From a phage: DNA of 64,000 bases. Positions 2,942-63,508 of the stretch are shown in pieces. Position numbers and translations under genes: made by a program. The stretch is taken from sequence record PZ445427.1, one strand, 5' to 3'. Below the pieces are notes generated by a model. That model saw nothing but the letters and a program-made list of their open reading frames with translations, made no database searches and had not been told where the DNA came from. Position 1 is the stretch's first letter, and each line of letters opens with the position of its first letter.

Positions 2942-3053
2942 CACGCGCCCGTGTACGCGATATAAAATGATTATCTAGTACCACACATCTCCCAATAAAA
3001 GCAAGCAAATTTTTTATTTAAAAGCAATATCATAGGCTTATTTAAAATTGTAG

Positions 3054-3082
3054 TTGCTTTCTCCCGTATATATTGGTATAAT
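3054..3082 (+). promoter_or_regulatory. sigma70 promoter TTGCTT-17-TATAAT (phoH)
   Basis: ttgctt 3054..3059, tataat 3077..3082. Confidence 0.55.
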
Positions 3083-3155
3083 ATATTTGTAAGTTGATAA
3101 ACAAGATCTTTTTGTTGATCCTCTGTTAGCGAAGTACACTATAGGAGTGTTATTT

Positions 3156-14258: not shown

Positions 14259-14708
14259 ATGAAGGCAGCTTTGCTTTTAATAGCTGCCCTAACCTATAGC
14301 TTCAATAGTCATGCGACCTACGACTCAAAGCAGATTGATTGCATTGCAAAAAATATCTACTTCGAAGCACGAGGTGAGGGCACTAAAGGAATGATCGCAG
14401 TTGCACAGGTTACTAAAAACCGTGTTAACTCTGGTACTTTTCCTGATTCTTACTGTAAAGTAGTATATCAGTCTAACCAGTTCTCTTGGGTGGCCAAGAG
14501 ACCAAAAGTTGATAAAACCGATGAGGCTTGGCAAGTTGCTAAGAATTTAGCTAGAGTGATATACTACGTTGATTTACCACAAGATCCAACACATGGAGCG
14601 TTATACTTCCATAGTGGTAAAGATAAACCGTACTGGACAAAGAAGTTTAAGAAAACAACGAAGATTCAAGGCCATACGTTCTACAAGCCTGTGGTTAAGA
14701 AAACTTAA
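14259..14708 (+). CDS. secreted SleB-like cell-wall hydrolase (Hydrolase_2 family)
   Basis: Start ATG 14259 after GGAG gives signal peptide MKAALLLIAALTYSFNSHA; motifs NIYFEARGE, AVAQVTKNRV, YQSNQFSWV. Confidence 0.6.
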   Translation: MKAALLLIAALTYSFNSHATYDSKQIDCIAKNIYFEARGEGTKGMIAVAQVTKNRVNSGTFPDSYCKVVYQSNQFSWVAKRPKVDKTDEAWQVAKNLARVIYYVDLPQDPTHGALYFHSGKDKPYWTKKFKKTTKIQGHTFYKPVVKKT

Positions 14709-14716
14709 AAATTCGA

Positions 14717-14745
14717 TTGCTTAAAGCCTTAAATTTCTGTATAAT
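14717..14745 (+). promoter_or_regulatory. T5-type early promoter
   Basis: ttgctt 14717..14722, 17 bp, tataat 14740..14745. Confidence 0.6.
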
Positions 14746-14776
14746 ACTTTCATAAATTAATGAGAGGAAGCGAAAT

Positions 14777-14947
14777 ATGAAATCAGTTGTAATTATTGGT
14801 GTTAATACTCGTGGTATCCGTACTACGAAAACAGTTAAAACTACTAACGTTGCTGAAATTACTACAAACCCTAAGAAGTTTGATTTCGCTAAAGTCTCGG
14901 CAGTTATGACAGAACAATCTTTTAACCAAGCACTGGGAATTAAATAA
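14777..14947 (+). CDS. small hypothetical protein (56 aa, below track cutoff)
   Basis: GAGAGGAAG RBS then ATG 14777; stop overlaps next start (TAATG). Confidence 0.45.
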   Translation: MKSVVIIGVNTRGIRTTKTVKTTNVAEITTNPKKFDFAKVSAVMTEQSFNQALGIK

Positions 14948-15390
14948 TGGAAGAGAATATTCTAAATGTTTTGCGTAGGGCTTTGCAGGAATCTAAGGTT
15001 GATGGTTCTGATAAAGAAGTAGCTAAAAGCTACCAGACCATAATCGGAGATCTTCAGCGTGTTGATAAAGACTTCATTACTTCTGAACAGTTTGTATCTT
15101 ATCTAAAAGCTCAACTGAAAAGCATTAATCAGACGAAAGCTAAACTTCACGGTCAAGACCTTGATAATTATAGCTTGCAGTCTGCTCAGTATGAGTATAT
15201 ACTGAACAAATGGCTACAACAGTATCTGCCGCCTCAGTTATCTGATTCTGAGATTCGCAAATACTTTGCAGAATTAGTTAAGTTGAACCCTGGGATTACA
15301 AAAGGTATGCTGATGAAAGCGATTAAGGAAGAGTTTCCTGGTCGTTACGACGGTGGCATTGCTGCTCAGGTTGCTGGCGAATTTAATTAA
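14947..15390 (+). CDS. YqeY/GatB-domain-like protein
   Basis: 147 aa; LNVLRRALQESK ... ELVKLNPGITKGMLMKAIKEEFPGRYDG resembles YqeY family. Confidence 0.45.
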   Translation: MEENILNVLRRALQESKVDGSDKEVAKSYQTIIGDLQRVDKDFITSEQFVSYLKAQLKSINQTKAKLHGQDLDNYSLQSAQYEYILNKWLQQYLPPQLSDSEIRKYFAELVKLNPGITKGMLMKAIKEEFPGRYDGGIAAQVAGEFN

Positions 15391-15398
15391 AAATTGAT

Positions 15399-15427
15399 TT
15401 GCTAAACGCCTCAAAATTCTGTATAAT
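15399..15427 (+). promoter_or_regulatory. T5-type early promoter (very close to classical P_N25 sequence)
   Basis: ttgcta 15399..15404, 17 bp, tataat 15422..15427, then AGATTCATAAATT. Confidence 0.65.
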
Positions 15428-16286
15428 AGATTCATAAATTAGAGAACAGCGAGCCGATTACGCTGAGTGAGTTTAGTGATTCCTACTAGGATAGCTATTC
15501 CACTGAATAGAGTCGGTGAGTTGGAGACTAGTAAGTACTCTGAGAGAGGCTACGAGCTAACGCTTATTGCTATTGATAGGGAACTGAAAATCTGCGGAAA
15601 ACTCGGGAGCTGTCCCGAAATCTCGTAAACTCTTCTCTAGTTTATGTTAGTGGGGTGTCGAACTGACTTATGTGATAACACTGCCGTCCTAGTATAAACG
15701 GTAATATCAAACCGTAACTGGTGGAAGATGCAGGTTCGAATCCTGCGGTCGGAAAGAATCAGATAACTCGGGCTTATACCGGATAAGCATTCGCTGCTGG
15801 AGTACATACTATGACGGTTCAGGAGGTACGCCACCTGATCAGTATTAGGTTAGAATCGAAACAGCTAAACCACGAGGAAACCTGACGGCCTCAACCAAAC
15901 TCGGAACTCGGGATCACTGCCTAGTGTGTGCCCCGTTTAACCTGAGACTAGGCATCCAGCTTCGCATCGAAAATCGGAGGTGCGATTCTAACAGACCGCG
16001 TGAATATGAGAGTGGGAAACGCTGACATGAGAGATGTCACTAATGGTGCCCAATAGTACAGGTAATTCGCGATAATTCCTGTTGAGCGGCAGCAGTAGGC
16101 TGGGAGTCATGACCTAAGCCTAACCGAGTTCTTCACATACGGAGAACATAACCACAAAGTCACCCTGACTTAAACTGGAAGATATTGTCTGACGGAAGGG
16201 CTGCAGAGCTTAATCTGAGGGGGCTGACCCTACCTACCGTCGGGTATCTTTAAGAGCTTTTATAAGAGTTCTTAAAAATACCTAAA

Positions 16287-16361
16287 CGGGGTGTAGTCTA
16301 AGGGATAGGCAGGAGTCTTCTAAATTCCTTTATGCAGGTTCGAATCCTGTCACCTCGGCCA
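16287..16361 (+). tRNA. tRNA-Arg(TCT)
   Basis: Acceptor cggggtg/cacctcg, anticodon loop cttctaa, T-arm gcagg-ttcgaat-cctgt, CCA encoded. Confidence 0.75.
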
Positions 16362-16387
16362 ATTTTATTAACTGCTAGGAAAATAAA

Positions 16388-16588
16388 GTGAAAACACGAT
16401 ATATAGTAAAAGTAGTAGGTGAACATTCACAAGTAAATACCACCGATGTTACAGCGCTAGCATTTGAAGTAGTCTCCGGTATAGTCATATTTCATAACGG
16501 AGATATCAAAGCTCCTGAATTTGCTGTGGATGCTAGCCTGTTTATTTCTGCAACTAAAGTAACTGTAGTAGCTAACTCTTCTAAATAA
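16388..16588 (+). CDS. hypothetical protein (66 aa, GTG start)
   Basis: AGGAAA RBS before GTG. Confidence 0.45.
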   Translation: MKTRYIVKVVGEHSQVNTTDVTALAFEVVSGIVIFHNGDIKAPEFAVDASLFISATKVTVVANSSK

Positions 16589-16599
16589 TAAGGAAATAT

Positions 16600-17544
16600 A
16601 TGTTTACTAAAAACACTAAAGAACTGACTTCCGATCAAAAAGTAATTCGTACTATTAAACGTTGGGGTGTTGGTGCTGTAGTTGGTCTTGGCGCTCTTAT
16701 TCTGGCTCTCAATTCCTACACAGTTGTTCAGGATGGTACTGTTAAGACTCAAACCTTCCTGGGTAAAGTTAGCCCGAACCCTGTACTGCCAGGCTTCCAT
16801 ATTGTTAACCCATTTGCTTCTTTTGATACTTTTAGTACGAAAGATATTTCTATGAAACTGGATAAACTTCAGGTTCCTAGCCAGGATAAGTTTAAGTCTA
16901 CTGTTGACATTACCGTTATGTTGCAGTTTGATGGTGCTAAAGCTCCTATGAACCGTGTTAACGCAGGTACTCAGGATCAGGCTCTGAACAAGTACGTTGA
17001 AGAGAAGATGCTATCTACGATTCGTGAGTTTGGTAAGTCTGTACCAAAAGCACAAGATCTGTTCGACGCTAAGATTCAGGCTCAACTGCAAACTGCTATT
17101 CAGCAAGAAGTAGAGGAGTATGCGCGTCCTTATGGTTACACCGTTAAGCAAGTATTCCTTCAGGATATTACTCTGCCACCGGTAATCATGGAACAGGTAC
17201 AGAACACCAAAGTTCGTGAAGAACAAGTTAACGCTGCAAAAGCTGAACTGGCTCGTGTTGAACAAGAAGCACAACAGAAAGTTAAGCAAGCTGAGGCAGA
17301 TCGTTCTGCTCGTGAAAACATGGCAGTAGCTAACGAACGTGACGCAGATGCTAAACTGTACGCAGCTAAGAAAGAAGCTGAAGCTAACGCCGCTCTGCAA
17401 CGTACCATTACTCCTGAAATGATTCGTTGGAAGCAGCTGGAAGTTGAAATGCTTCGTGCTGAAAAATACCAAGGTGGTGTACCGCAGACTGTTGTTGGTA
17501 CTGGCTATGATGGTCAAATGATCATGGATATGCGTAACAAGTAA
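16600..17544 (+). CDS. SPFH/band-7 (prohibitin/HflK-like) membrane protein
   Basis: N-terminal TM segment then SPFH-like core (VVQDGTVKTQTF, PGFH, DITV) and long coiled-coil tail. Confidence 0.6.
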   Translation: MFTKNTKELTSDQKVIRTIKRWGVGAVVGLGALILALNSYTVVQDGTVKTQTFLGKVSPNPVLPGFHIVNPFASFDTFSTKDISMKLDKLQVPSQDKFKSTVDITVMLQFDGAKAPMNRVNAGTQDQALNKYVEEKMLSTIREFGKSVPKAQDLFDAKIQAQLQTAIQQEVEEYARPYGYTVKQVFLQDITLPPVIMEQVQNTKVREEQVNAAKAELARVEQEAQQKVKQAEADRSARENMAVANERDADAKLYAAKKEAEANAALQRTITPEMIRWKQLEVEMLRAEKYQGGVPQTVVGTGYDGQMIMDMRNK

Positions 17545-17568
17545 TAGTTACACGTAATCTTCGAACCA

Positions 17569-17601
17569 AGCCCGCGTTTCCTCCGAGAGCGCGGGCTTTT
17601 C
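17569..17601 (+). terminator. rho-independent terminator
   Basis: agcccgcg ... cgcgggct hairpin then TTTTCT. Confidence 0.6.
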
Positions 17602-17611
17602 TGTATTTAAG

Positions 17612-17654
17612 ACAAAAGAAAAGCCCCTTACCTTTCGGCAGGGGCTTTGTTTTT
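17612..17654. terminator. bidirectional terminator between convergent transcription units
   Basis: aagcccct ... aggggctt hairpin flanked by A-run upstream and TTTGTTTTT downstream. Confidence 0.6.
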
Positions 17655-17861
17655 GGTTTAGAACCATATACTCTTGTTACAGCAACCACCCATACGGGAG
17701 ACCAATCTTGACTGAAAATCTACTCTAGGGGGCAGGATAAGAGTAGGCTTAAAGGCAAACGGATTGAACACCGGTATTTGCGTAAACATTGCTGGAGAGC
17801 AACAACGTGCTACAGGCATTGGGCAGCATGATGTAGGTTTTCTACAACACATATAAACTCC

Positions 17862-49171: not shown

Positions 49172-49178
49172 ACTCTAC

Positions 49179-49207
49179 TTGACGTTATGATTTCTGCATG
49201 TTATAAT
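49179..49207 (+). promoter_or_regulatory. strong sigma70 promoter TTGACG-17-TGtTATAAT pointing into ORF-free repeat region
   Basis: ttgacg 49179..49184, extended -10 tg at 49199..49200, tataat 49202..49207. Confidence 0.55.
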
Positions 49208-49213
49208 AACTCT

Positions 49214-49400
49214 ATGAAATAACATAGAATAAAGAGATCCACCCGGATACGGATGGTGGATGGGAAACTTCTATTTCCCCCGTAGCTTGTCGGAGGGCTA
49301 GGGAAATCTTCAGAAGTTTTGTACCATCTCACGCAATTCGTATCCCAGGGGTGGAGCATCTCTCACAATCCCTTGGGGATCTTATACTTATATAAAAACT
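49214..49400 (+). ncRNA. candidate structured non-coding RNA
   Basis: Promoter-proximal ORF-free GC-rich segment with multiple local hairpins (gggaaacttctatttccc; cccagggg ... cccttgggg). Confidence 0.3.
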
Positions 49401-49456
49401 AATACTGTTGAATAGATAAATTAACGTTCAAGATGATACACTTGTTGCCGCCGCTC

Positions 49457-49650
49457 TTCCTAGGATGGCACAACACTTTCTAGTAGACTCCTAAGTTTCT
49501 AGGAAAACTCACACCAACTCAGGCGGTTTTCATATTCCTAGAAACTCTAGCAATAGGCGGTTTAATACAGGGCGGTTATTTCTAGGAGACATTTTTCCAA
49601 AACACATTTCTGGAAATTGCTATCGGATTTGCACTCTGTGTTTCTAGAAA
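49457..49650. repeat. array of about 8 TTCTAG(G/A)A motifs with 3 interspersed (A/G)GGCGGTT motifs
   Basis: tcctagga 49459, ttctagta 49479, ttctagga 49498, tcctagaa 49536, ttctagga 49580, ttctggaa 49609, ttctagaa 49643; ggcggtt at 49522, 49556, 49571. Confidence 0.6.
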
Positions 49651-50222
49651 TTTATGGTCGGATTTGCACAATTGCCTAAGTTTTCATGAACACATACTCT
49701 CCTGAAAATAACAGCATTATTTCGGGCCGAAGGCCCATGATTGCCTGAGTTTTTAGAGCCACAGGAATTTTCACTTGTCAAGCTATTTTGCCCCATTTTG
49801 CTAATAAAATTTCGCATAATCTCGCCCCACGCCCAATTATCCCAAAACATCCCACATTATCCCCAAAAACGCAGCAAACTAGGCGTTGCACGCCCTTCCA
49901 GCTGCTACTTTCGTAGTTCCTCCCAAAATCTCATCGGATTCGCACTTCTCCCCAAACTCACACAATCACACACCCTCCAATCGAAGTCACAAAAATCTTG
50001 TCGGTTCTGCACACCTTAACACTTGTCGGATTTGCACATATTCTAGTAAATCCAGCTGGATTGCATCGCAGTTGCGGATTGCTGGAGTTTTTAGGAAAAT
50101 TCATTGTCGGATTCGCACACTGTAAAAATATTTCCCATCGGATTTGCACACTACCAAAAATTGTCGGATTCGCACATGCACGCTGGCACGTAATCCATGG
50201 TGGCAAATGTCGGATTTGCACA
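49622..50222. repeat. dispersed array of about 9 copies of GTCGGATT(T/C)GCACA
   Basis: Copies at about 49622, 49657, 49932, 50000, 50025, 50106, 50137, 50163, 50209 plus 2 degenerate copies near 50057..50085. Confidence 0.7.
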
Positions 50223-50257
50223 AAAGCGCAGGGCAAAATGAAAATGCCCTGCCTGCC

Positions 50258-50405
50258 GAAATGCGAATGATAATGAGATTGATTCGCATTTGAGAAGTTG
50301 AATGCGAATGATAATGATTCGCGTTTAGAAAGGGGAATGAGAATGGTTATCCTTTACAGAGTTGAATACGAATGAGTCGCATTTAGAAAGCGAAGTGAGA
50401 AACAC
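50258..50405. repeat. three tandem palindromic units AATGCGAAT-N-ATTCGCATT
   Basis: gaatgcgaatgataatga...gattcgcattt repeated at 50260, 50301, 50367. Confidence 0.6.
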
Positions 50406-50416
50406 TGTTATTTAAG

Positions 50417-50425
50417 TTATCCACA
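50417..50425 (+). promoter_or_regulatory. consensus DnaA box TTATCCACA
   Basis: Exact 9-mer; two 8/9 copies TTATCAACA at 50478 and 50490. Confidence 0.55.
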
Positions 50426-50506
50426 GGTTTATTAACAGCACGATTTGACTTGACAAAATCCTAGTGATTTTGAGGCGTTATCAACAGACTTATCAACAGG
50501 TTATTC

Positions 50507-50526
50507 TACTGTATATTTATACAGTA
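50507..50526. promoter_or_regulatory. LexA (SOS) box-like palindrome TACTGTATATTTATACAGTA
   Basis: 19/20 match to TACTGTATATATATACAGTA consensus (CTGT-N8-ACAG). Confidence 0.5.
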
Positions 50527-50555
50527 TTCCTGCGTAGTGAATAACTCTAATATAG

Positions 50556-50587
50556 CTCTAAAACGCTCTCAAACGCATTCTAACGCG
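50556..50587 (+). repeat. 31-bp direct repeat copy 1 (tctaaaacgctctcaaacgcattctaacgcg)
   Basis: Second copy at 54824..54854 with 3 mismatches. Confidence 0.6.
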
Positions 50588-50627
50588 TTTATTTTTGGAG
50601 GACGTATTTTAATAAGGGGAAATTTGA

Positions 50628-50668
50628 GGAAGGCCAGAAAAAGCGGGGCCGATAGTTGCGCCCCGTTA
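50628..50668 (-). terminator. rho-independent terminator (minus strand)
   Basis: cggggc ... gccccg hairpin; minus strand reads stem then CTTTTTCT. Confidence 0.5.
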
Positions 50669-50671
50669 TTA

Positions 50672-50866
50672 TTAGTCCGGTATTTGATGGGAGAACTCTA
50701 CGCTTTCACCGTAGGAATCTACTAGATTAGTGTAGTAACCATACTCATCATATATAAGTTTGTCATACTCTTGATTCTCACAAATTGCGCGGTTTTCTTT
50801 TGTATCTTCTACATAGAATGTATCCACGGTAACACTAGTTTTACGAATAACAATTTTATCACTCAT
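50672..50866 (-). CDS. hypothetical protein (64 aa)
   Basis: Track ORF, last gene of minus-strand operon inside IR-bracketed cassette. Confidence 0.5.
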   Translation of the reverse strand: MSDKIVIRKTSVTVDTFYVEDTKENRAICENQEYDKLIYDEYGYYTNLVDSYGESVEFSHQIPD

Positions 50867-50883
50867 AGTAACGCCCTCTTTTA

Positions 50884-51144
50884 TTAGTATTCTGTATTAG
50901 TTATAACTATAGCCGTATTTTCTAATTGTCCAGCACTTTCCGCTAAAAATGTAATATGTGCTGTATTGTTAATATAGATTGACTTATGCGCATTTCTTAA
51001 AGCATAAGCCCACCCACGGATCGCTGGCAAAATCTTGTCAAGCGATATATTTTGCGCTCTCAATTCCTTAGCGCGTACTGCCATTGCTTCATGTGCTTCA
51101 GTCAGTCCCTTAACTGTAAAAATACCGTTGCCGTGGTTGATCAT
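50884..51144 (-). CDS. hypothetical protein (86 aa)
   Basis: Track ORF, minus-strand operon. Confidence 0.5.
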   Translation of the reverse strand: MINHGNGIFTVKGLTEAHEAMAVRAKELRAQNISLDKILPAIRGWAYALRNAHKSIYINNTAHITFLAESAGQLENTAIVITNTEY

Positions 51145-51270
51145 AGTGCCATTGCTCCTAGAATGAGAATGATTATCAATATCATTGTAAAGCCATTACC
51201 AAATCGTAAACGCTGGGAATGTTTCCCAGCGGTATTATTAGATTTATGGCTTTGTGTTTTTCGCCACCAG

Positions 51271-51471
51271 CTATTCACGGTAAACGCTCCAACCGTCTAG
51301 CTTCCATTCCTCCCCCTTGCGAATATTGAAAAACCAATCATTAAAATTGTAACCATCTTCCGACATGATCACGCCGTTTTCTTTCATGTACAAAAACTCA
51401 TCGCTAGTAAAATATTGATTACTAACTTTGAAACCTTGTTTCATTTTTTCTAACGCTTCATCTTTAGTCAT
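51271..51471 (-). CDS. hypothetical protein (66 aa)
   Basis: Track ORF, 4-nt overlap with upstream gene. Confidence 0.5.
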   Translation of the reverse strand: MTKDEALEKMKQGFKVSNQYFTSDEFLYMKENGVIMSEDGYNFNDWFFNIRKGEEWKLDGWSVYRE

Positions 51472-54149: not shown

Positions 54150-54396
54150 TTCTTTGTCTCCCTCGTTAATCGGTGAGTGAATGATATAGATAATTGTTCG
54201 CTAGGGGCAAGAAAAAAGAAAAGGTTTTTTATTTCTTGCTTACTGCCTGTTTTTATGATAACCGCGCGTTTTCTATTTCTAGCTCTCTGTAAGCGTACAC
54301 AAGGCTTTATTATAGTAAGGGGTAATGCTGAAAAACCGCTTAGAACGCGTTTTAGGCCGCTTAAATTTGATTGCGGTTGTTACTGCTACCATTCTA

Positions 54397-54416
54397 CCCT
54401 GTATATTTATACAGTA
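54397..54416. promoter_or_regulatory. LexA (SOS) box-like palindrome (core CTGTATATTTATACAG identical to 50509..50524)
   Basis: ccctgtatatttatacagtagg. Confidence 0.5.
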
Positions 54417-54436
54417 GGATAACCTGTACATAAGTC

Positions 54437-54445
54437 TGTGGATAA
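54437..54445 (-). promoter_or_regulatory. consensus DnaA box (TGTGGATAA)
   Basis: Exact reverse complement of TTATCCACA. Confidence 0.55.
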
Positions 54446-54485
54446 GTCGCCAAAACGTCGCCTATTACGTCAAGTTATTTTGTGC

Positions 54486-54494
54486 TGTGGATAA
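54486..54494 (-). promoter_or_regulatory. consensus DnaA box (TGTGGATAA)
   Basis: Exact reverse complement of TTATCCACA; 8/9 copy at 54770. Confidence 0.55.
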
Positions 54495-54823
54495 CTTTGT
54501 GAATAACCTAAATGATAGTGGTTCTCACTTAGCCGATAGTTTCTTATAGTTATTATTTCTCTTTAATTTATAAATATATTATATAATATGAAATAGTTAG
54601 TTGGCTAATAGGTTTTTAGAGTATTAATAGTCTGCTAACTGTTTCGGCTGTTACAATCCACCAGCGTGATTATCATCCTAGCGATTGTTAGTCTACTAAT
54701 GCTCTGATGCACGTCCAGACTTATTTGTCAATGAAAAATAACAGCAGAAAATACTTTTTTGAAAAATCAAGTGGATAACTCATTAAATTTCATTTTTGCT
54801 TTTTGTATAAGTTATTAACAGGG

Positions 54824-54854
54824 TCTAAAACGCTCTGTAACGCATTCTAAGCGC
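54824..54854 (+). repeat. 31-bp direct repeat copy 2
   Basis: tctaaaacgctctgtaacgcattctaagcgc. Confidence 0.6.
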
Positions 54855-54921
54855 CTCAAAGGAAAAGATAGGCAATCATAAGGGGTACACCGAGAAAACC
54901 TCACCACGAGGATTTTAGATT

Positions 54922-54949
54922 TTGTCAAGTAGGGCAAAGCAAATATAAA
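54922..54949 (+). promoter_or_regulatory. candidate sigma70 promoter TTGTCA-16-TATAAA
   Basis: ttgtca 54922..54927, tataaa 54944..54949. Confidence 0.35.
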
Positions 54950-55180
54950 TGAAAAAATTACTTGCTAAAATGGTTGTTTTGGTGTTATTCGCGCGCCTGT
55001 TTCATTAAATTTAGTGCGCCGCTGGACGTTTGCGGGTAGTGGTTTTCTTTACGTTTCTTTACAAAAATACGCTTGCGCCATTTTCGGGAATAACCTATTA
55101 TTTATCTCGTAGGACGGCAAGACGGAAACGAAAGGCCAGACTACAACGGCGGGGAAGTTTACCGCCATGCTCTTTAAAAA

Positions 55181-55206
55181 CTAGGGAACATCTTAAAGCC
55201 TATCGG
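55181..55206. repeat. 26-bp inverted repeat, left copy (partner 55468..55495)
   Basis: ctagggaacatcttaaagcctatcgg vs reverse complement of ccgataggttttaagatgttccccgtag; flanked by 12-bp direct repeat gctctttaaaaa at 55169 and 55501. Confidence 0.6.
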
Positions 55207-55240
55207 CGGTAAACTTATACATTATAAGGAATCGACGATA

Positions 55241-55459
55241 ATGATCAAATCAAAAAACGCTTTAGTGATTAGTGCAAAACCTGCTAGCCCACTGGATAGC
55301 AGAACAAAAAATTTGTTGACAGTAGCGCAACGATCTGTAAAATACAGATTCAAGCAATACAAGAAAGGCAAGCAACAAGGGCTGGAAATGGTGTGGCGTA
55401 ATATAATGATTGATTTATATAACTCACATCAAATCGAAAAAAGTTTAAAAAACGCTTGA
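55241..55459 (+). CDS. hypothetical basic protein (72 aa) bracketed by inverted repeats
   Basis: Track ORF; lies exactly between the 26-bp IR copies. Confidence 0.45.
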   Translation: MIKSKNALVISAKPASPLDSRTKNLLTVAQRSVKYRFKQYKKGKQQGLEMVWRNIMIDLYNSHQIEKSLKNA

Positions 55460-55484
55460 CACGCTAGCCGATAGGTTTTAAGAT
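55456..55484 (+). promoter_or_regulatory. candidate sigma70 promoter TTGACA-17-TAAGAT
   Basis: ttgaca 55456..55461 overlapping right IR copy. Confidence 0.4.
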
Positions 55485-55495
55485 GTTCCCCGTAG
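55468..55495. repeat. 26-bp inverted repeat, right copy
   Basis: See 55181..55206. Confidence 0.6.
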
Positions 55496-55623
55496 TAACT
55501 GCTCTTTAAAAATTTGGATAACGGTAATGTTTAGGCTAACTCCTAGCGGATTATAATCTAATAGCGTTTCAAAGTATCGAGGCGCTATTGTGGAATAATC
55601 CCCAATAAACCGGAGTATTAAAA

Positions 55624-55875
55624 ATGCAAAACGTTATTACCGCGCCGAAAGTAGGTCAATCTGTATTCATTCCTTTTGTAACTAAAACGGATGAATTAAC
55701 CGGAAAAGCCGAACGTATTAAAGGTGCGGCGCTTGATCCCTTTGATAAGATTGAAGCGGTCTATGCGGAAACGGAACGCAGTAACCACGGCAAGCCTATT
55801 TATAACGTCCGTGTTAAATCTGGCGACGTTGTAAAAATCATTCAGAAAGATGATAAATGGCAAGCTATCGCATAA
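55624..55875 (+). CDS. hypothetical protein (83 aa)
   Basis: GGAGTATTAAAAATG initiation region (motif shared by several genes in this block). Confidence 0.55.
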   Translation: MQNVITAPKVGQSVFIPFVTKTDELTGKAERIKGAALDPFDKIEAVYAETERSNHGKPIYNVRVKSGDVVKIIQKDDKWQAIA

Positions 55876-56161
55876 ATTAATGCGCCTTACATATCATGCT
55901 TAGTTAGGCAATAAAGATAACTCGAAATATTCCTAGCGTGAACGGAATAATAAACAGCGTATAAATACAATGTTGCCTTATTAATTCTCTGGCAAGCCGG
56001 ATAAGGTGAGAATATAAATATATTCGGGAATTAATAAACCGCTTGAAACTGGAAATAAAAATAAAATGTTTCCGTTATATATTCTAGCTAATAGAATATA
56101 TAGCGATTAACATTTAGTTAATCATAATCCCTTAATTAATAATTGAATGGAGTATTAAATT

Positions 56162-61726: not shown

Positions 61727-63508
61727 ATGAGTTTTTTCGCAGGAAAATTTAGTGATGGTAAAACTGTATTATCGCTAAACGCTGCTAATGGTGGTGATAC
61801 TGGTGAACACTACTCTCCAAATACTAATAGTATCTTTCACTCAGATATGCCTTTCGTCCTGGTTGATGGGACTTATGAAGCGGCTCTAGGTAATGCAGGT
61901 AATGGATACTTTGTTACTCAGATGCCTTGGGATATTATAAATATTAAATCCAATGATCCGGGTAGAGTTATATTAACTGCTATTGAGATTAATGGTACCC
62001 ATAGAGGATTCCTCAATGGTACTCAATCTCAGGTTGGTAGCTATTTAACTCTTGCGGAGGATCCAGGTTTTAGAGCATTCGCTCAAGTAGGCTTAAGTTC
62101 TGCTTTTGCAATCGGCGATAGTCTAGCACACGGTACTTATATTTATAATAGTGGATTAGGACATGAAGAGTCTATAGCCAGACAAGGTACTGGCGGAACA
62201 ATTATACAATCATCAGATGTGGGTATAGTGAGACCTGGGGGTGTTCCGGTAGGGGAAGCGGTTGCCAGAGCATATGAAATGCTTGGATTTCCTAGAGGAA
62301 CTATTAATGTACCTATAAATGCCGGAGATTTAAACTATTGGGATCCTAACTGGCAGGCACCTATTGGTTCTGCCGGTAGAGGTCATGATCATTTCTACGT
62401 ATGTAACTCAAATATTCGCAGCTATATAGGTAAGAAAAAAGAAATACCGGCAAATGTAAATCATATCTATTCCTCCCCTACTTTTCCTTATCTATATACC
62501 TGTAGAGGTTCGGCTAGTAATATGGGTTCTCAGTCTGTTAACACTGTTTATATTCAGGACTGGTATAATATTACACCTACTAAGGTTATCTGGTATGTTT
62601 TAAACCTACGTTACTCTAATGGTAATATGGTGGTTTCTGGTAATCCATTTACTGGTTCTGATATCCTTATCTCTCCATCTAACTTTACTATTAAAGGGGT
62701 AAGTTTACCTAACTCTGGTTATAAATTTATTAATCAGAATGCCTTTGGTAATCTAGGTTATCGTTCAGATATGGAATATATAGGTAATAATGCTGCGTAT
62801 ACTGGGGTTTTTGGGGATACTACTGCGCGATGTGAATTCATTGGCTCTAGCAATGGTGGATTATGGTCTCCAGTTAACTATGGGGGTGCTGCCTCTCAGA
62901 TTAGTTTATATAAGTTTGGTGCAGGTAAACAATGGTATGTAGATACTAATAGTAATTCCATAGGAAATGAACATGGTCCAGTTTGGAGTCCCTCTACAGT
63001 TCCACTACGATTATTCCCTGGTAACGTTGCTAGTACTTATGTTGGGGATGATATAAATCCATCTTACCCAGCGGCAGGCAACTATTATCAGCCTTTAGCT
63101 ACTGTATGGTTGGGTCTGCCTAATGCTCATTCTACTATTATACTAACCACTGAAGTTATTATGGGTAATATTAATACTGCTGGAATGCCTGTGCGTACTT
63201 ACGGAGGTAGTGCTTGGCAGGTACAAGGTAGACGGCAACAAAGTTATACTGCTGGTGATGGTATATTTCATCAAATACTAACATTGCCTCCAGGATATCT
63301 AGTACCATATCATAGTACTACAGCATATAGTTATACACAGGAATGGGCGAGCCGACCAGATAGTATGATTTTTAGAAGGAATGGTTATATTTATACTATT
63401 AAAAACCTTGGTAATGGCAACGTTGAGTTGGGTGTTATTATCCATGCTGCAGAAGCAGCTGCTATCTTCTTACCAAGACTACGTGTAACAGTTCAACGCC
63501 TAACCTAA
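61727..63508 (+). CDS. tail receptor-binding protein-like (pb5/Oad-like), 593 aa
   Basis: GGAGA RBS; large Gly/Asn/Ser/Tyr-rich beta-type protein; position next to lipoprotein gene; identity by context and composition only. Confidence 0.45.

What the first reader, a model, noticed from the sequence alone, without database searches (positions are those of the whole stretch)
15428..16290. Promoter-driven 0.9-kb non-coding stretch ending in tRNA-Arg
The promoter at 15399..15427 most similar to classical P_N25 is followed by about 860 nt without any ORF of 60 aa or more, containing a tRNA-like T-arm (gcagg-ttcgaat-cctgc at 15730..15746) that lacks a matching acceptor stem, before tRNA-Arg(TCT) at 16287. 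It may encode one or more stable RNAs other than tRNAs, or degenerate tRNAs.
Basis: seen in the sequence. Interest (0 to 1): 0.5.

Follow-up and report, generated by a model that had tools for sequence, protein, structure and literature searches.

The report
T5-type RNAX: large structured phage RNA
The ORF-free stretch is the counterpart of phage T5's annotated but unstudied "RNAX": an ~850-nt, many-domain folded non-coding RNA with a built-in tRNA look-alike, made from a strong early promoter just upstream of tRNA-Arg, and it resembles the giant "ornate" phage RNAs (GOLLD, ROOL) without belonging to any curated RNA family.

Summary
A sigma-70 promoter (15399-15427) is followed by ~853 nt with no credible gene, then tRNA-Arg(UCU) at 16287. 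The window is a T5-like phage (100% identical here to Salmonella phages Stitch and Seabear). The stretch is the homologue of T5 "rnaX / RNAX, stable RNA with unknown functions". It is a structured RNA gene, not junk or a chain of dead tRNAs. Short invariant motifs alternate with hairpins that change by compensatory substitutions. In the 3' core, 98.7% of cells pair (38-47% in slid controls), and 14 pairs show double changes. Minimum-free-energy z-score is -4.4; G+C is 46% against 40% for the window. An 8-nt loop holding the palindrome GUCAUGAC is invariant in all 38 distinct homologues, so self-association is a testable idea. Homologues (638-1290 nt) occur in 526 phage records (Tequintavirus, Epseptimavirus, Sugarlandvirus, Hongcheonvirus). 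None occur in E. coli genomes or plasmids. Rfam 15 matches only the tRNA model. Function is unknown; the closest analogues are GOLLD and ROOL.

The parts
15399..15427 (+). Sigma-70 promoter (TTGCTA, 17-nt spacer, TATAAT), orthologue of T5 promoter P 16-17.
   Evidence: 10 of 12 consensus matches, the only hit in 14700-17800. (annotated promoter at the same place in S114 and T5). (conserved in all homologues).
15434..16286 (+). RNAX transcript body. The start is inferred at the A 7 nt after the -10 hexamer. The 3' end is inferred from RNase P cleavage at the 5' end of tRNA-Arg.
   Evidence: Homology to T5 and DT571/2 misc_RNA rnaX. MFE -269.8 kcal/mol, z = -4.43. The ends themselves are inferred, not measured.
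15434..15446 (+). P1 helix, 5' strand (AUAAAUUAGAGAA). It pairs with 15633-15645.
   Evidence: MFE fold. In T5 the same strands form a simple hairpin. L079 has the compensatory AAAUUAGAUG/CAUCUAAUUU.
15447..15632 (+). Optional 5' domain, inserted in the loop of P1. It holds hairpin CAGCG/CGCUG (15447-15451/15461-15465), a variable hairpin, a candidate pseudoknot GCCGAUU (15453-15459) with AGUCGGU (15511-15517), and the motif AAUCUCGUAAACUCUUCUC.
   Evidence: The closing pairs of the variable hairpin covary (G-C/A-U/G.U; U-A/C-G in 21 sequences). The pseudoknot pairs in 21 of 21, with only U.G to U-A variation, plus one C-G to A-U change in the Pectobacterium phage. The domain is absent from T5 and replaced by an HNH ORF in SE3 and KKP_3831.
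15633..15645 (+). P1 helix, 3' strand (UUCUCUAGUUUAU).
15650..15682 (+). Conserved junction motif GUGGGGUGUCGAA...UUAUGU..UAACACU immediately 5' of the tRNA-like domain.
   Evidence: Present in all homologues, including Klebsiella and Pectobacterium phages. Used as the search pattern.
15683..15754 (+). tRNA-like domain. Acceptor stem 15683-15689/15747-15753; D arm with A14, G18G19, A21; T arm 15730-15746 with loop UUCGAAU. The anticodon arm is degenerate (3 bp plus a 6-nt loop). Discriminator A; no encoded CCA.
   Evidence: Rfam tRNA 29.3 bits and 26.6-38.3 bits in homologues. Compensatory changes in the acceptor, T and D stems across 15 distinct sequences. Not called by ARAGORN.
15755..16008 (+). 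Central domain. Conserved motifs GGAAAGA, GAUAACU, CGAAACAGCUAAACCACGAGG, CCUCAACCAAAC and CUUCGCAUCGAAAAUCGGAGGUGCGAUU are separated by variable hairpins, for example GCUUA/UAAGC at 15772-15776/15784-15788.
   Evidence: The hairpin GCUUAU/AUAAGC becomes GGUUC/GAACC in Klebsiella phages and GCGUA/UACGC in the Pectobacterium phage. The T5 type carries a different module here.
16009..16184 (+). Conserved 3' core. A multi-helix junction is closed by GUGG (16012-16015) with CCAC (16152-16155). It is followed by hairpin AAGUCA-CCC-UGACUU (16157-16171) and AAACUGGAAGAUA.
   Evidence: Alignment, fold and pair counts. Covariance model R1 finds exactly one copy in the window at 209.9 bits.
16105..16112 (+). 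Invariant 8-nt hairpin loop AGUCAUGA closed by GG/CC. It contains the 8-nt palindrome GUCAUGAC (16106-16113). Candidate kissing-loop self-association site.
   Evidence: Present exactly once in 38 of 38 distinct homologues, within 19 different flanking-stem contexts. The flanking stem covaries (helix 5). The functional reading is an inference.
16178..16251 (+). Tail domain, closed by GAAGAUA (16178-16184) pairing with UAUCUUU (16245-16251). The interior is variable.
   Evidence: The G-C pair in the window type becomes A-U in the T5 type (GAAAAUA/UAUUUUU). Inner helices covary (helices 8 and 9).
16249..16276 (+). Terminal 12-bp A/U-rich hairpin UUUAAGAGCUUU-UAUA-AGAGUUCUUAAA. This is the last element conserved in all homologues.
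   Evidence: G.U to G-C and U.G to C-G exchanges fit RNA pairing on the + strand only. 94.7% identical over 38 nt even in Pectobacterium phage DU_PP_V (hit H90).
16287..16361 (+). tRNA-Arg(UCU) with encoded CCA, co-transcribed downstream. Its 5' processing would set the RNAX 3' end.
   Evidence: ARAGORN; Rfam 49.3 bits. In the T5 annotation rnaX abuts the tRNA.

Best explanation
The stretch is a gene for a long, multi-domain, highly structured non-coding RNA: the orthologue of bacteriophage T5 RNAX. Host RNA polymerase starts at the strong early promoter (15399-15427) and reads through RNAX, tRNA-Arg(UCU), a 66-aa ORF and an SPFH/Band-7 gene to the terminator-like hairpin at 17568-17598. RNase P cleavage at the 5' end of tRNA-Arg would release RNAX as a separate molecule of about 850 nt (inferred). 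The RNA has four parts. First, a dispensable 5' domain sits inside helix P1. Second, a junction carries a tRNA-shaped domain that keeps the tRNA elbow and acceptor stem but cannot decode. Third comes a variable central domain. Fourth comes a conserved 3' core with a tail and terminal hairpin. I think it most likely acts as an RNA scaffold in the manner of the giant phage RNAs GOLLD and ROOL. Its invariant palindromic loop (GUCAUGAC) may serve as a self-association (kissing-loop) contact. Its tRNA-like arm may be a swappable peripheral module that engages tRNA-handling factors. Shown here: homology to RNAX, absence of coding signal, conserved secondary structure on the + strand, modular architecture. 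Inferred: transcript ends, stability, oligomerisation, biological role.
For: Homology and synteny with T5 and DT571/2 'rnaX, stable RNA with unknown functions'. Promoter confirmed, and no terminator-like site before 17568. MFE z-score -4.43; G+C 0.463 against 0.400. 3' domain: 62 pairs, 98.7% of cells paired against 38-47% in slid controls, 14 pairs with changes on both sides against 0-4, and 0 of 500 shuffles reach the observed values. G.U to G-C exchanges place the structure on the + strand. The tRNA-like stems covary. The domain-1 hairpin covaries and a pseudoknot is possible. The same ordered set of invariant motifs runs from E. coli and Salmonella phages to Klebsiella and Pectobacterium phages, while the hairpins between them differ. 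The palindromic loop is invariant in 38 of 38 sequences. No conserved ORF; inner ORFs have no Pfam or PHROG family, whereas the flanking genes do. GOLLD and ROOL are phage RNAs near tRNA islands; GOLLD has a conserved 3' and variable 5' region, sometimes with embedded tRNAs, and both assemble through kissing loops (PMC12286853).
Against: No expression or stability data were available. The 'stable RNA' label in the T5 record carries no reference that I could read, and I found no paper on RNAX. I found no covariation-supported pairing between domains, so one functional molecule is not proven against several processed pieces. Large parts of the window's RNA are absent or replaced in relatives: the 5' domain is missing in T5, the tRNA-like domain is replaced in Eps7 and GSW6, and the central domain has two types. 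The covariance model of the 3' core scores only 16-18 bits on Klebsiella phages and misses the Pectobacterium phage, where similarity is at motif level only. The loop is invariant, so no covariation can support the kissing-loop idea. No GOLLD or ROOL model match.
Confidence: 0.85

Rival explanations
1. RNAX is a polycistronic precursor. It is cut by RNase P, RNase E, RNase III and 3' exonucleases into several independent small stable RNAs: the tRNA-like RNA, the 3' core, the 5' domain. No function would need the whole molecule.
For: The tRNA-like domain has the acceptor stem and elbow that RNase P recognises. The T5 record lists several separate small 'tRNA-like stable RNAs' elsewhere in the tRNA region. 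Domains are gained, lost and swapped independently among relatives. No inter-domain covariation was found. The long A/U-rich terminal hairpin could be an RNase III site (inference).
Against: Motif order is constant, and the architecture is nested: domains sit inside closing helices P1, GUGG/CCAC and GAAGAUA/UAUCUUU. In Eps7-type RNAs a plain hairpin replaces the tRNA-like domain at the same junction. That fits a peripheral arm of a larger fold better than a separately released product. The tRNA-like domain carries conserved U5.U68 and G1.A72 mismatches and no CCA.
Confidence: 0.25
2. It is a long structured 5' leader whose role is cis-acting: control of processing, stability or timing of tRNA-Arg and of the downstream 66-aa and SPFH genes. 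It would not be a trans-acting RNA.
For: The same transcription unit holds tRNA-Arg and two ORFs, with no terminator before 17568. RNAX always lies upstream of tRNA-Arg.
Against: In many relatives a 169-aa ORF or two small ORFs separate RNAX from tRNA-Arg without disturbing RNAX. Length and complexity (638-1290 nt, many conserved single-stranded motifs) far exceed known leaders. Conservation stops at the terminal hairpin, not at the tRNA.
Confidence: 0.1
3. It is decayed sequence: remnants of old tRNA genes and mobile-element scars in a recombination hot spot, transcribed but without function.
For: One degenerate tRNA-like element. The T-arm is nearly identical to that of the neighbouring tRNA-Arg. 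Homing-endonuclease ORFs insert here often. T5 carries an insertion flanked by a 24-nt direct repeat. Mosaic modules.
Against: Compensatory substitutions keep helices intact across genera. Invariant single-stranded motifs persist from Markadamsvirinae to Sugarlandvirus and Mccorquodalevirinae. It is present in 526 phage records. G+C and folding energy are above background.
Confidence: 0.04
4. It encodes one or more small proteins, for example the 53-aa + strand ORF 15467-15628 or the 65-aa - strand ORF 15637-15834.
For: ORFs of 45-65 aa exist. A 60-65-aa - strand ORF overlaps the tRNA-like region in several relatives. Some depositors annotate 'hypothetical proteins' here.
Against: No Pfam or PHROG family for either ORF, while the flanking genes match. 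The 53-aa ORF lies in a domain that T5 lacks. ORF positions and lengths are not conserved in Klebsiella, Pectobacterium or Eps7-type homologues. The substitution pattern is compensatory for RNA helices. The - strand ORF has no promoter-like site and simply follows the conserved tRNA-like sequence.
Confidence: 0.03

Closest known systems
Bacteriophage T5 RNAX (misc_RNA rnaX, locus tag T5s08, NC_005859.1 40848-41566; also annotated in phage DT571/2)
   Same: Same locus: downstream of the YqeY-like gene, same promoter, ends at tRNA-Arg(UCU). Blocks of 80-94% identity. Covariance model of the 3' core scores 174.8 bits on T5. Same tRNA-like domain and terminal hairpin.
   Different: The window's RNA has a 186-nt 5' domain where T5 has only a hairpin, and a different central module. 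T5 has an extra 84-nt insertion flanked by a 24-nt direct repeat. The T5 record says nothing on structure or function.
[quoted passage not shown]
   Same: Very large (about 800 nt or more). Encoded by phages and prophages next to tRNA islands. Conserved 3' region and poorly conserved 5' region. tRNAs sometimes sit in a variable linker. Many hairpins and pseudoknots. Function unknown (PMC12286853; compare).
   Different: No match to the Rfam model even at E<=10, so it is not a member. Different hosts and phage group (Demerecviridae of Enterobacterales). Nanocage formation is unknown for RNAX.
ROOL RNA (Rumen-Originating, Ornate, Large)
   Same: Large phage or prophage RNA near tRNA islands. No protein partner known. 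Assembles through kissing loops, which fits RNAX's invariant palindromic loop as a hypothesis.
   Different: No Rfam match. Unrelated sequence and secondary structure. Oligomerisation of RNAX is untested.
tRNA-like domains in non-tRNA RNAs (T5 'tRNA-like stable RNAs' RNA1, RNA2, RNA3; tmRNA tRNA-like domain; bacterial Y RNA YrlA)
   Same: Acceptor stem plus D/T elbow without a decoding anticodon arm. The comparison with tmRNA and YrlA rests on my own knowledge.
   Different: Here the domain is one arm of a much larger RNA and is replaced by a simple hairpin in some relatives. ARAGORN called no tmRNA, and no Rfam family other than tRNA matched.
Palindromic kissing-loop dimerisation sites such as the HIV-1 DIS (works-like comparison only; own knowledge)
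   Same: A self-complementary 6-8-nt sequence displayed in a hairpin loop of about 8-9 nt, with a strictly conserved loop sequence.
   Different: No evidence here that RNAX dimerises. The loop could instead dock on hairpin 16157-16171, which carries the same palindrome, or bind a protein.

Membership tests
T5 RNAX (annotated stable RNA of Tequintavirus T5) | Lies between the P16-17-type early promoter (after the YqeY-like gene) and tRNA-Arg(UCU). | tested here: met
T5 RNAX (annotated stable RNA of Tequintavirus T5) | Sequence and structure homology to the T5 rnaX feature. | tested here: met
   blastn 83% over the shared blocks. Three-way alignment. Model R1 scores 209.9 bits on the window and 174.8 bits on T5.
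T5 RNAX (annotated stable RNA of Tequintavirus T5) | Accumulates as a stable RNA in infected cells. | not testable with these tools
   No transcript data. Only the wording of the GenBank note is available.
tRNA (Rfam RF00005) | Acceptor, D and T arms with the conserved elbow nucleotides. | tested here: met
   29.3 bits against a gathering score of 29. Homologues score 26.6-38.3 bits. Stems covary; A14, G18G19, A21 and UUCGAAU are kept.
tRNA (Rfam RF00005) | 5-bp anticodon stem with a 7-nt loop and a defined anticodon. | tested here: not met
   3-bp stem and 6-nt loop in the window. A long hairpin in Klebsiella SEL21-type phages; other shapes elsewhere. No ARAGORN call. Depositors give conflicting anticodons: Pseudo-TAA, Ser-ACT, SeC-TCA, Pro-CGG.
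tRNA (Rfam RF00005) | Fully paired acceptor stem and 3' CCA, as encoded in the neighbouring tRNA-Arg. | tested here: not met
   U5.U68 in 11 of 15 and G1.A72 in 6 of 15 sequences. The sequence after the stem is AAAGAA, not CCA.
GOLLD RNA | Match to the curated covariance model. | tested here: not met
   No hit at E<=1 on 18 kb of the window and on 9 homologous loci, nor at E<=10 on the region alone.
GOLLD RNA | Large phage-borne RNA beside a tRNA island, with a conserved 3' part, a variable 5' part and tRNA in a variable region. | tested here: met
   against the description in PMC12286853. This is a resemblance only; it does not make RNAX a member.
GOLLD / ROOL RNA | RNA-only homo-oligomeric nanocage. 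| not testable with these tools
   Only the invariant palindromic loop hints at self-association.
ROOL RNA | Match to the curated covariance model. | tested here: not met
tmRNA, and all other Rfam 15 families (which I expect to include RNase P RNA, group I/II introns, 6S and Y-RNA-like; their presence in the library was not checked) | ARAGORN tmRNA call, or a match to any Rfam family other than tRNA. | tested here: not met
   ARAGORN reports tRNAs only. cmscan at E<=10 returns only the tRNA hit and one antisense chance hit.
Protein-coding gene | An ORF conserved in position and frame among homologues, or a match to a protein family. | tested here: not met

The most novel reading that the evidence does not exclude
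RNAX is a third, independent class of giant 'ornate' phage RNA. Like GOLLD and ROOL, it would self-assemble into an RNA-only homo-oligomer. Here the contact would be the invariant palindromic loop GUCAUGAC, with tRNA-shaped arms displayed on the outside. It would act early in infection on the tRNA or translation machinery, or on tRNA-directed host defences. Unlike GOLLD and ROOL, it sits in a genetically tractable model phage of E. coli and Salmonella.
Probability: 0.2. Interest if true: 0.85.

Novelty: new member of a known kind. Interest (0 to 1): 0.6.

Why it matters
GOLLD and ROOL were recently shown to form RNA-only nanocages, yet their function is unknown and their hosts are hard to work with. 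RNAX has the same outward traits: it is giant, phage-borne, sits at the edge of a tRNA island, has a conserved 3' half and a variable 5' half, and carries an embedded tRNA-like module. It lives in T5 and hundreds of cultured T5-like phages of E. coli, Salmonella and Klebsiella. There, deletions, loop mutants, pull-downs and infection assays against tRNA-targeting defence systems are routine. The locus has been labelled 'stable RNA with unknown functions' in the T5 reference genome. It is missing from Rfam, and most depositors leave it blank or annotate it as hypothetical proteins or odd tRNAs. A curated family would correct hundreds of phage annotations. It could also make the long-standing question of what giant phage RNAs do directly testable.

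Tried and rejected
1. Known RNA families: three Rfam runs, including E<=10 on the region alone, gave only the tRNA model. ARAGORN gave no tmRNA and did not call the tRNA-like domain.

2. Coding hypothesis: the inner ORFs have no Pfam or PHROG match, and there is no conserved ORF in 33 homologues.

3. Metagenome scan, my error: the hairpin pattern was written with 6 instead of 7 N. All 38 loci returned (L020-L057) were chance matches without any RNAX motif.

4. IMG/VR scans: the first pattern gave 5 T5-like contigs. The junction pattern gave 32 T5-like isolates plus 5 chance hits inside coding regions. No RNAX turned up outside T5-like phages.

5. Covariance model R1 found no second copy in the window or in T5 22-42 kb. 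It found nothing in Vibrio phage Dax (Ermolyevavirinae) or in a Felixounavirus that shares a tRNA-Arg-proximal match. It also missed the Pectobacterium homologue.

6. A brute-force search for long-range helices was swamped by A/U- and G.U-permissive matches. It yielded only local or closing helices, with no convincing inter-domain pairing.

7. No match in 5,426 complete E. coli genomes or 72,556 plasmids.

8. Literature: nine searches found no paper on RNAX (one search failed because a term was too short). The BF23 genome paper does not mention it.

9. An attempt to get a denominator of T5-like genomes used the receptor-binding protein by mistake, and that protein is too variable. The fraction of T5-like phages carrying RNAX therefore remains unmeasured.

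10. ORF-free length as a statistic was rejected: 34% of shuffles do as well.
Full report
**Observation check.**
- The scan finds one sigma-70-type promoter in 14700-17800: TTGCTA, 17 nt, TATAAT at 15399-15427.
- The next gene-like object on the + strand is tRNA-Arg(tct) at 16287-16361.
- In between, the longest + strand ORF is 53 aa (15467-15628). One 65-aa GTG ORF lies on the opposite strand (15637-15834).
- The T-arm gcagg-ttcgaat-cctgc is at 15730-15746.
GCCGUCC (15683-15689) pairs with GGUCGGA (15747-15753), with a U.U and a G.A mismatch. The Rfam tRNA model just reaches its gathering score on 15683-15754, at 29.3 against 29 bits.
- An ORF-free run of this length is not unusual on its own: 341 of 1000 shuffles have no longer ORF.
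- What sets the region apart is its composition and its fold. G+C is 0.463 against 0.400 for the window. MFE is -269.8 kcal/mol, z = -4.43.

**What the locus is.**
- The window comes from a T5-like phage. The region is 100% identical to Salmonella phages Seabear, Stitch, EH2, EH3 and EH5 (genus Epseptimavirus in the related records read, e.g. S114). It matches 507 phage records by megablast and 526 by blastn.
- In the T5 reference genome the homologous interval is annotated misc_RNA rnaX, 'RNAX, stable RNA with unknown functions'. It spans 719 nt, from promoter 'P 16-17' to the base before tRNA-Arg.
- Phage DT571/2 carries the same annotation, at 636 nt. S114 labels the promoter 'P16-17-like'.
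- The T5 record lists eight such 'stable RNAs' in its tRNA region.
- Most other depositors leave the interval empty. Others call hypothetical proteins or odd tRNAs there: tRNA-OTHER, Sec, Ser-ACT, Pro-CGG.
- I found no paper that discusses RNAX.

**Not protein-coding.**
- The two inner ORFs match no Pfam or PHROG family. The flanking genes do: a YqeY-like protein, PHROG 11609, and an SPFH/Band-7 'lipoprotein'.
- Across 33 homologues no ORF is conserved in place and length. The 53-aa ORF lies in a domain that T5 lacks altogether.

**It is a structured RNA on the + strand.**
- Twelve distinct sequences of the 3' domain give a consensus of 62 pairs.
- 98.7% of cells form standard pairs, against 38-47% when partners are slid by 1-3 columns.
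- 14 pairs carry changes on both sides, against 0-4 in the slid controls.
- None of 500 shuffles reaches the observed pairing, double-change or covariation values.
- Frequent G.U to G-C and U.G to C-G exchanges would be C.A mismatches on the other strand. The fold therefore belongs to the transcript made from the promoter.
- Further hairpins covary in more distant relatives:
  - GCUUAU/AUAAGC (15772-15788) becomes GGUUC/GAACC in Klebsiella phages and GCGUA/UACGC in Pectobacterium phage DU_PP_V.
  - The terminal hairpin shows C-G, U-A and U.G at one position.
  - P1 is AAAUUAGAGA/UCUCUAAUUU in T5 and AAAUUAGAUG/CAUCUAAUUU in L079.

**Architecture (window coordinates).**
- P1 (15434-15446 with 15633-15645) encloses a 186-nt 5' domain. 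That domain holds hairpin CAGCG/CGCUG, a variable hairpin whose closing pairs covary, and a possible 7-bp pseudoknot GCCGAUU/AGUCGGU. The pseudoknot pairs in 21 of 21 sequences but has little variation to test it.
- T5 has only the bare P1 hairpin. SE3 and KKP_3831 have an HNH-type ORF in place of the domain.
- Next comes the invariant junction GUGGGGUGUCGAA...AACACU (15650-15682), then the tRNA-like domain (15683-15754).
- A central domain follows (15755-16008). It comes in two alternative types.
- The conserved 3' core is 16009-16184. Its multi-helix junction is closed by GUGG/CCAC.
- A tail is closed by GAAGAUA/UAUCUUU. This pair of strands is G-C in the window type and A-U in the T5 type.
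- The RNA ends in a 12-bp A/U-rich terminal hairpin (16249-16276).
- Some relatives add a further ~180-nt domain between P1 and the junction.
- Total lengths run from 638 to 1290 nt.
- The pattern is short invariant, mostly unpaired motifs in constant order, separated by hairpins of free sequence and length. This is what large folded RNAs look like.

**The tRNA-like domain.**
- Among 15 distinct versions, the acceptor, T and D stems keep pairing through double changes. Examples are T-stem C-G to U-A and A-U to G-C, and acceptor 4:69 G-C to C-G.
- The D loop keeps A14, G18G19 and A21. The T loop is UUCGAAU.
- The elbow and acceptor of a tRNA are therefore preserved.
- The anticodon arm is not. 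It has 3 bp and a 6-nt loop here, and a long hairpin in some Klebsiella phages.
- U5.U68 and G1.A72 mismatches are conserved, and no CCA is encoded.
- In Eps7, IMGVR_706 and GSW6 the whole domain is replaced by an unrelated hairpin, CCAGA...UCUGG, at the same junction.
- I read it as a swappable peripheral arm, not the core of the RNA.

**An invariant palindromic loop.**
- The 8-nt loop AGUCAUGA (16105-16112), closed by GG/CC, occurs exactly once in all 38 distinct homologues. This includes the Klebsiella and Pectobacterium phages. The stem beneath it takes 19 different forms (helix 5).
- It contains the palindrome GUCAUGAC.
- A self-complementary sequence held in a loop is what a symmetric kissing-loop contact between two copies of an RNA requires (my own knowledge).
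- The same palindrome, split by a 3-nt loop, forms the neighbouring hairpin 16157-16171. An intramolecular docking or exchange is therefore also possible.
- This is a hypothesis only. An invariant sequence offers no covariation.

**Transcription unit and maturation (inferred).**
- No terminator-like site lies between the promoter and 17568-17598.
- RNAX, tRNA-Arg, a 66-aa ORF and the SPFH gene are therefore probably one early transcript made by host polymerase.
- RNase P processing of tRNA-Arg would free the RNAX 3' end. This rests on established knowledge of RNase P, and the T5 annotation ends rnaX at the tRNA.
- In S124, ende, 26175II, YZU-L1, GSW6 and KKP_3831 a 169-aa ORF lies between the terminal hairpin and tRNA-Arg. 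In Klebsiella phages two small ORFs lie there.
- The conserved RNA thus ends at the hairpin and is not merely a tRNA leader.

**Comparison with known families.**
- Rfam 15 has no family for it. Only the tRNA model hits, even at E<=10 on the region alone and on nine homologous loci.
- It is therefore not a member of GOLLD, ROOL or any other curated Rfam family, and ARAGORN calls no tmRNA.
- In behaviour it is closest to GOLLD and ROOL. Those are giant RNAs of phages and prophages, often near tRNA islands. [quoted passage not shown] Both are held together by kissing loops and A-minor contacts in RNA-only multimers, and their function is unknown (PMC12286853).
- RNAX shares the size, the phage origin and the position at the head of a region with 29 tRNA genes. 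It also shares the 3'-conserved, 5'-variable layout and the embedded tRNA-like element.

**Distribution.**
- Homologues were read in Tequintavirus, Epseptimavirus, Sugarlandvirus (Klebsiella) and Hongcheonvirus (Pectobacterium; motif-level similarity).
- The 3'-core model scores as follows:

| Sequence | Bits |
|---|---|
| window | 209.9 |
| T5 | 174.8 |
| 26175II | 70.5 |
| YZU-L1 | 41.7 |
| ende and KKP_3831 | 26 |
| Klebsiella phages | 16-18 |
| DU_PP_V, Vibrio phage Dax, a Felixounavirus | no hit |

- There is no match in complete E. coli genomes or in plasmids.
- All true IMG/VR hits are T5-like isolates.

**Mechanism and rivals.**
- Best supported (0.85): a structured non-coding RNA gene orthologous to T5 RNAX.
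- Within that, I favour a trans-acting scaffold that may self-associate through the palindromic loop and presents a tRNA-shaped arm (about 0.2 for the oligomer reading).
- The main rival (0.25) is that the transcript is a precursor cut into several small stable RNAs. The modular gain and loss of domains and the RNase P-competent shape of the tRNA-like domain speak for it. The nested helices, the constant motif order and the hairpin-for-tRNA swap speak against it.
- A purely cis-acting leader (0.1), decayed sequence (0.04) and small proteins (0.03) fit the data poorly.

**Verdict.**
- The locus itself is not new: it is annotated in T5.
- Its nature appears undescribed in what I could search. 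It is a large, covariation-supported, modular RNA family of T5-like phages, absent from Rfam and analogous to GOLLD and ROOL.
- Its presence in a tractable model phage gives it more than routine interest.

Noticed in passing
L002 (T5) about 3000-3110; compare window 16157-16184: T5 RNAX carries an 84-nt insertion flanked by a 24-nt direct repeat AGTCACCTTGAC[T/A]TAAACTGGAA. The repeat duplicates the hairpin AAGUCA-CCU-UGACUU. The insert has inverted ends (ATACTTACTT...AAGTAAGTAT) and is absent from DT571/2 and the window. It looks like a small mobile or duplicated element.
   Followed up: partly
L059 (SE3) 515-1000; L061 (KKP_3831) 515-997; L063 (KKP 3953) 625-1110: In these phages an HNH-type ORF of about 160 aa starts right at the RNAX transcription start and replaces the 5' domain. 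In KKP 3953 the ORF is a chimera that keeps the RNA motifs GAGAACAGC, GAGCCGATTACG and AATAGAGTCGG inside it.
   Followed up: partly
L016 1670-2179, L017 1505-2014, L018 1728-2237, L058 1495-2004, L061 1628-2137; Klebsiella L010 2012-2517: A 169-aa ORF sits between the RNAX terminal hairpin and tRNA-Arg; in Klebsiella phages two small ORFs sit there. The junction 16282-16286 of the window is thus a recurrent insertion point. I suspect a homing endonuclease, but this was not checked.
   Followed up: no
L009 (Eps7) about 1225-1265; also L007 and L058: The tRNA-like domain is replaced by an unrelated hairpin, CCAGAUGCUCACAGG...CUCCUUCUGG, at exactly the same junction.
   Followed up: yes
window 16105-16114 and 16157-16171: The invariant loop AGUCAUGACC and the neighbouring hairpin AAGUCA-CCC-UGACUU carry the same palindrome AGUCAUGACU, once single-stranded and once as a stem. 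In the Pectobacterium phage the hairpin splits the palindrome at a different point (AAGUC-UACGC-AUGACUU).
   Followed up: partly
window 17568-17652: A weak Rfam hit to anti-hemB (28.7 bits, gathering score 49.5) coincides with the strong terminator-like hairpin at 17568-17598, which T5 and S114 annotate as a bidirectional terminator. It is most likely a chance match to a hairpin.
   Followed up: partly
window 49172-51467 and 54150-56131: Two further stretches of about 2 kb lack any ORF of 100 aa or more. They may hold small genes or other non-coding features. I did not examine them.
   Followed up: no
window 14947-15390 and 16600-17544: The gene upstream of RNAX is a YqeY/GatB-like protein (PHROG 'tRNA amidotransferase'). 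The gene downstream of tRNA-Arg is an SPFH/Band-7 protein. Klebsiella phages lack the YqeY-like gene at this position; there RNAX follows the endolysin.
   Followed up: partly
window 61727-63508: The 593-aa ORF is a receptor-binding tail protein, 100% identical to that of E. coli phage vB_EcoS_Ace but only about 85% to those of the Salmonella phages read. The RNAX region, by contrast, is identical to Salmonella phages Stitch and Seabear. The genome is therefore mosaic.
   Followed up: no
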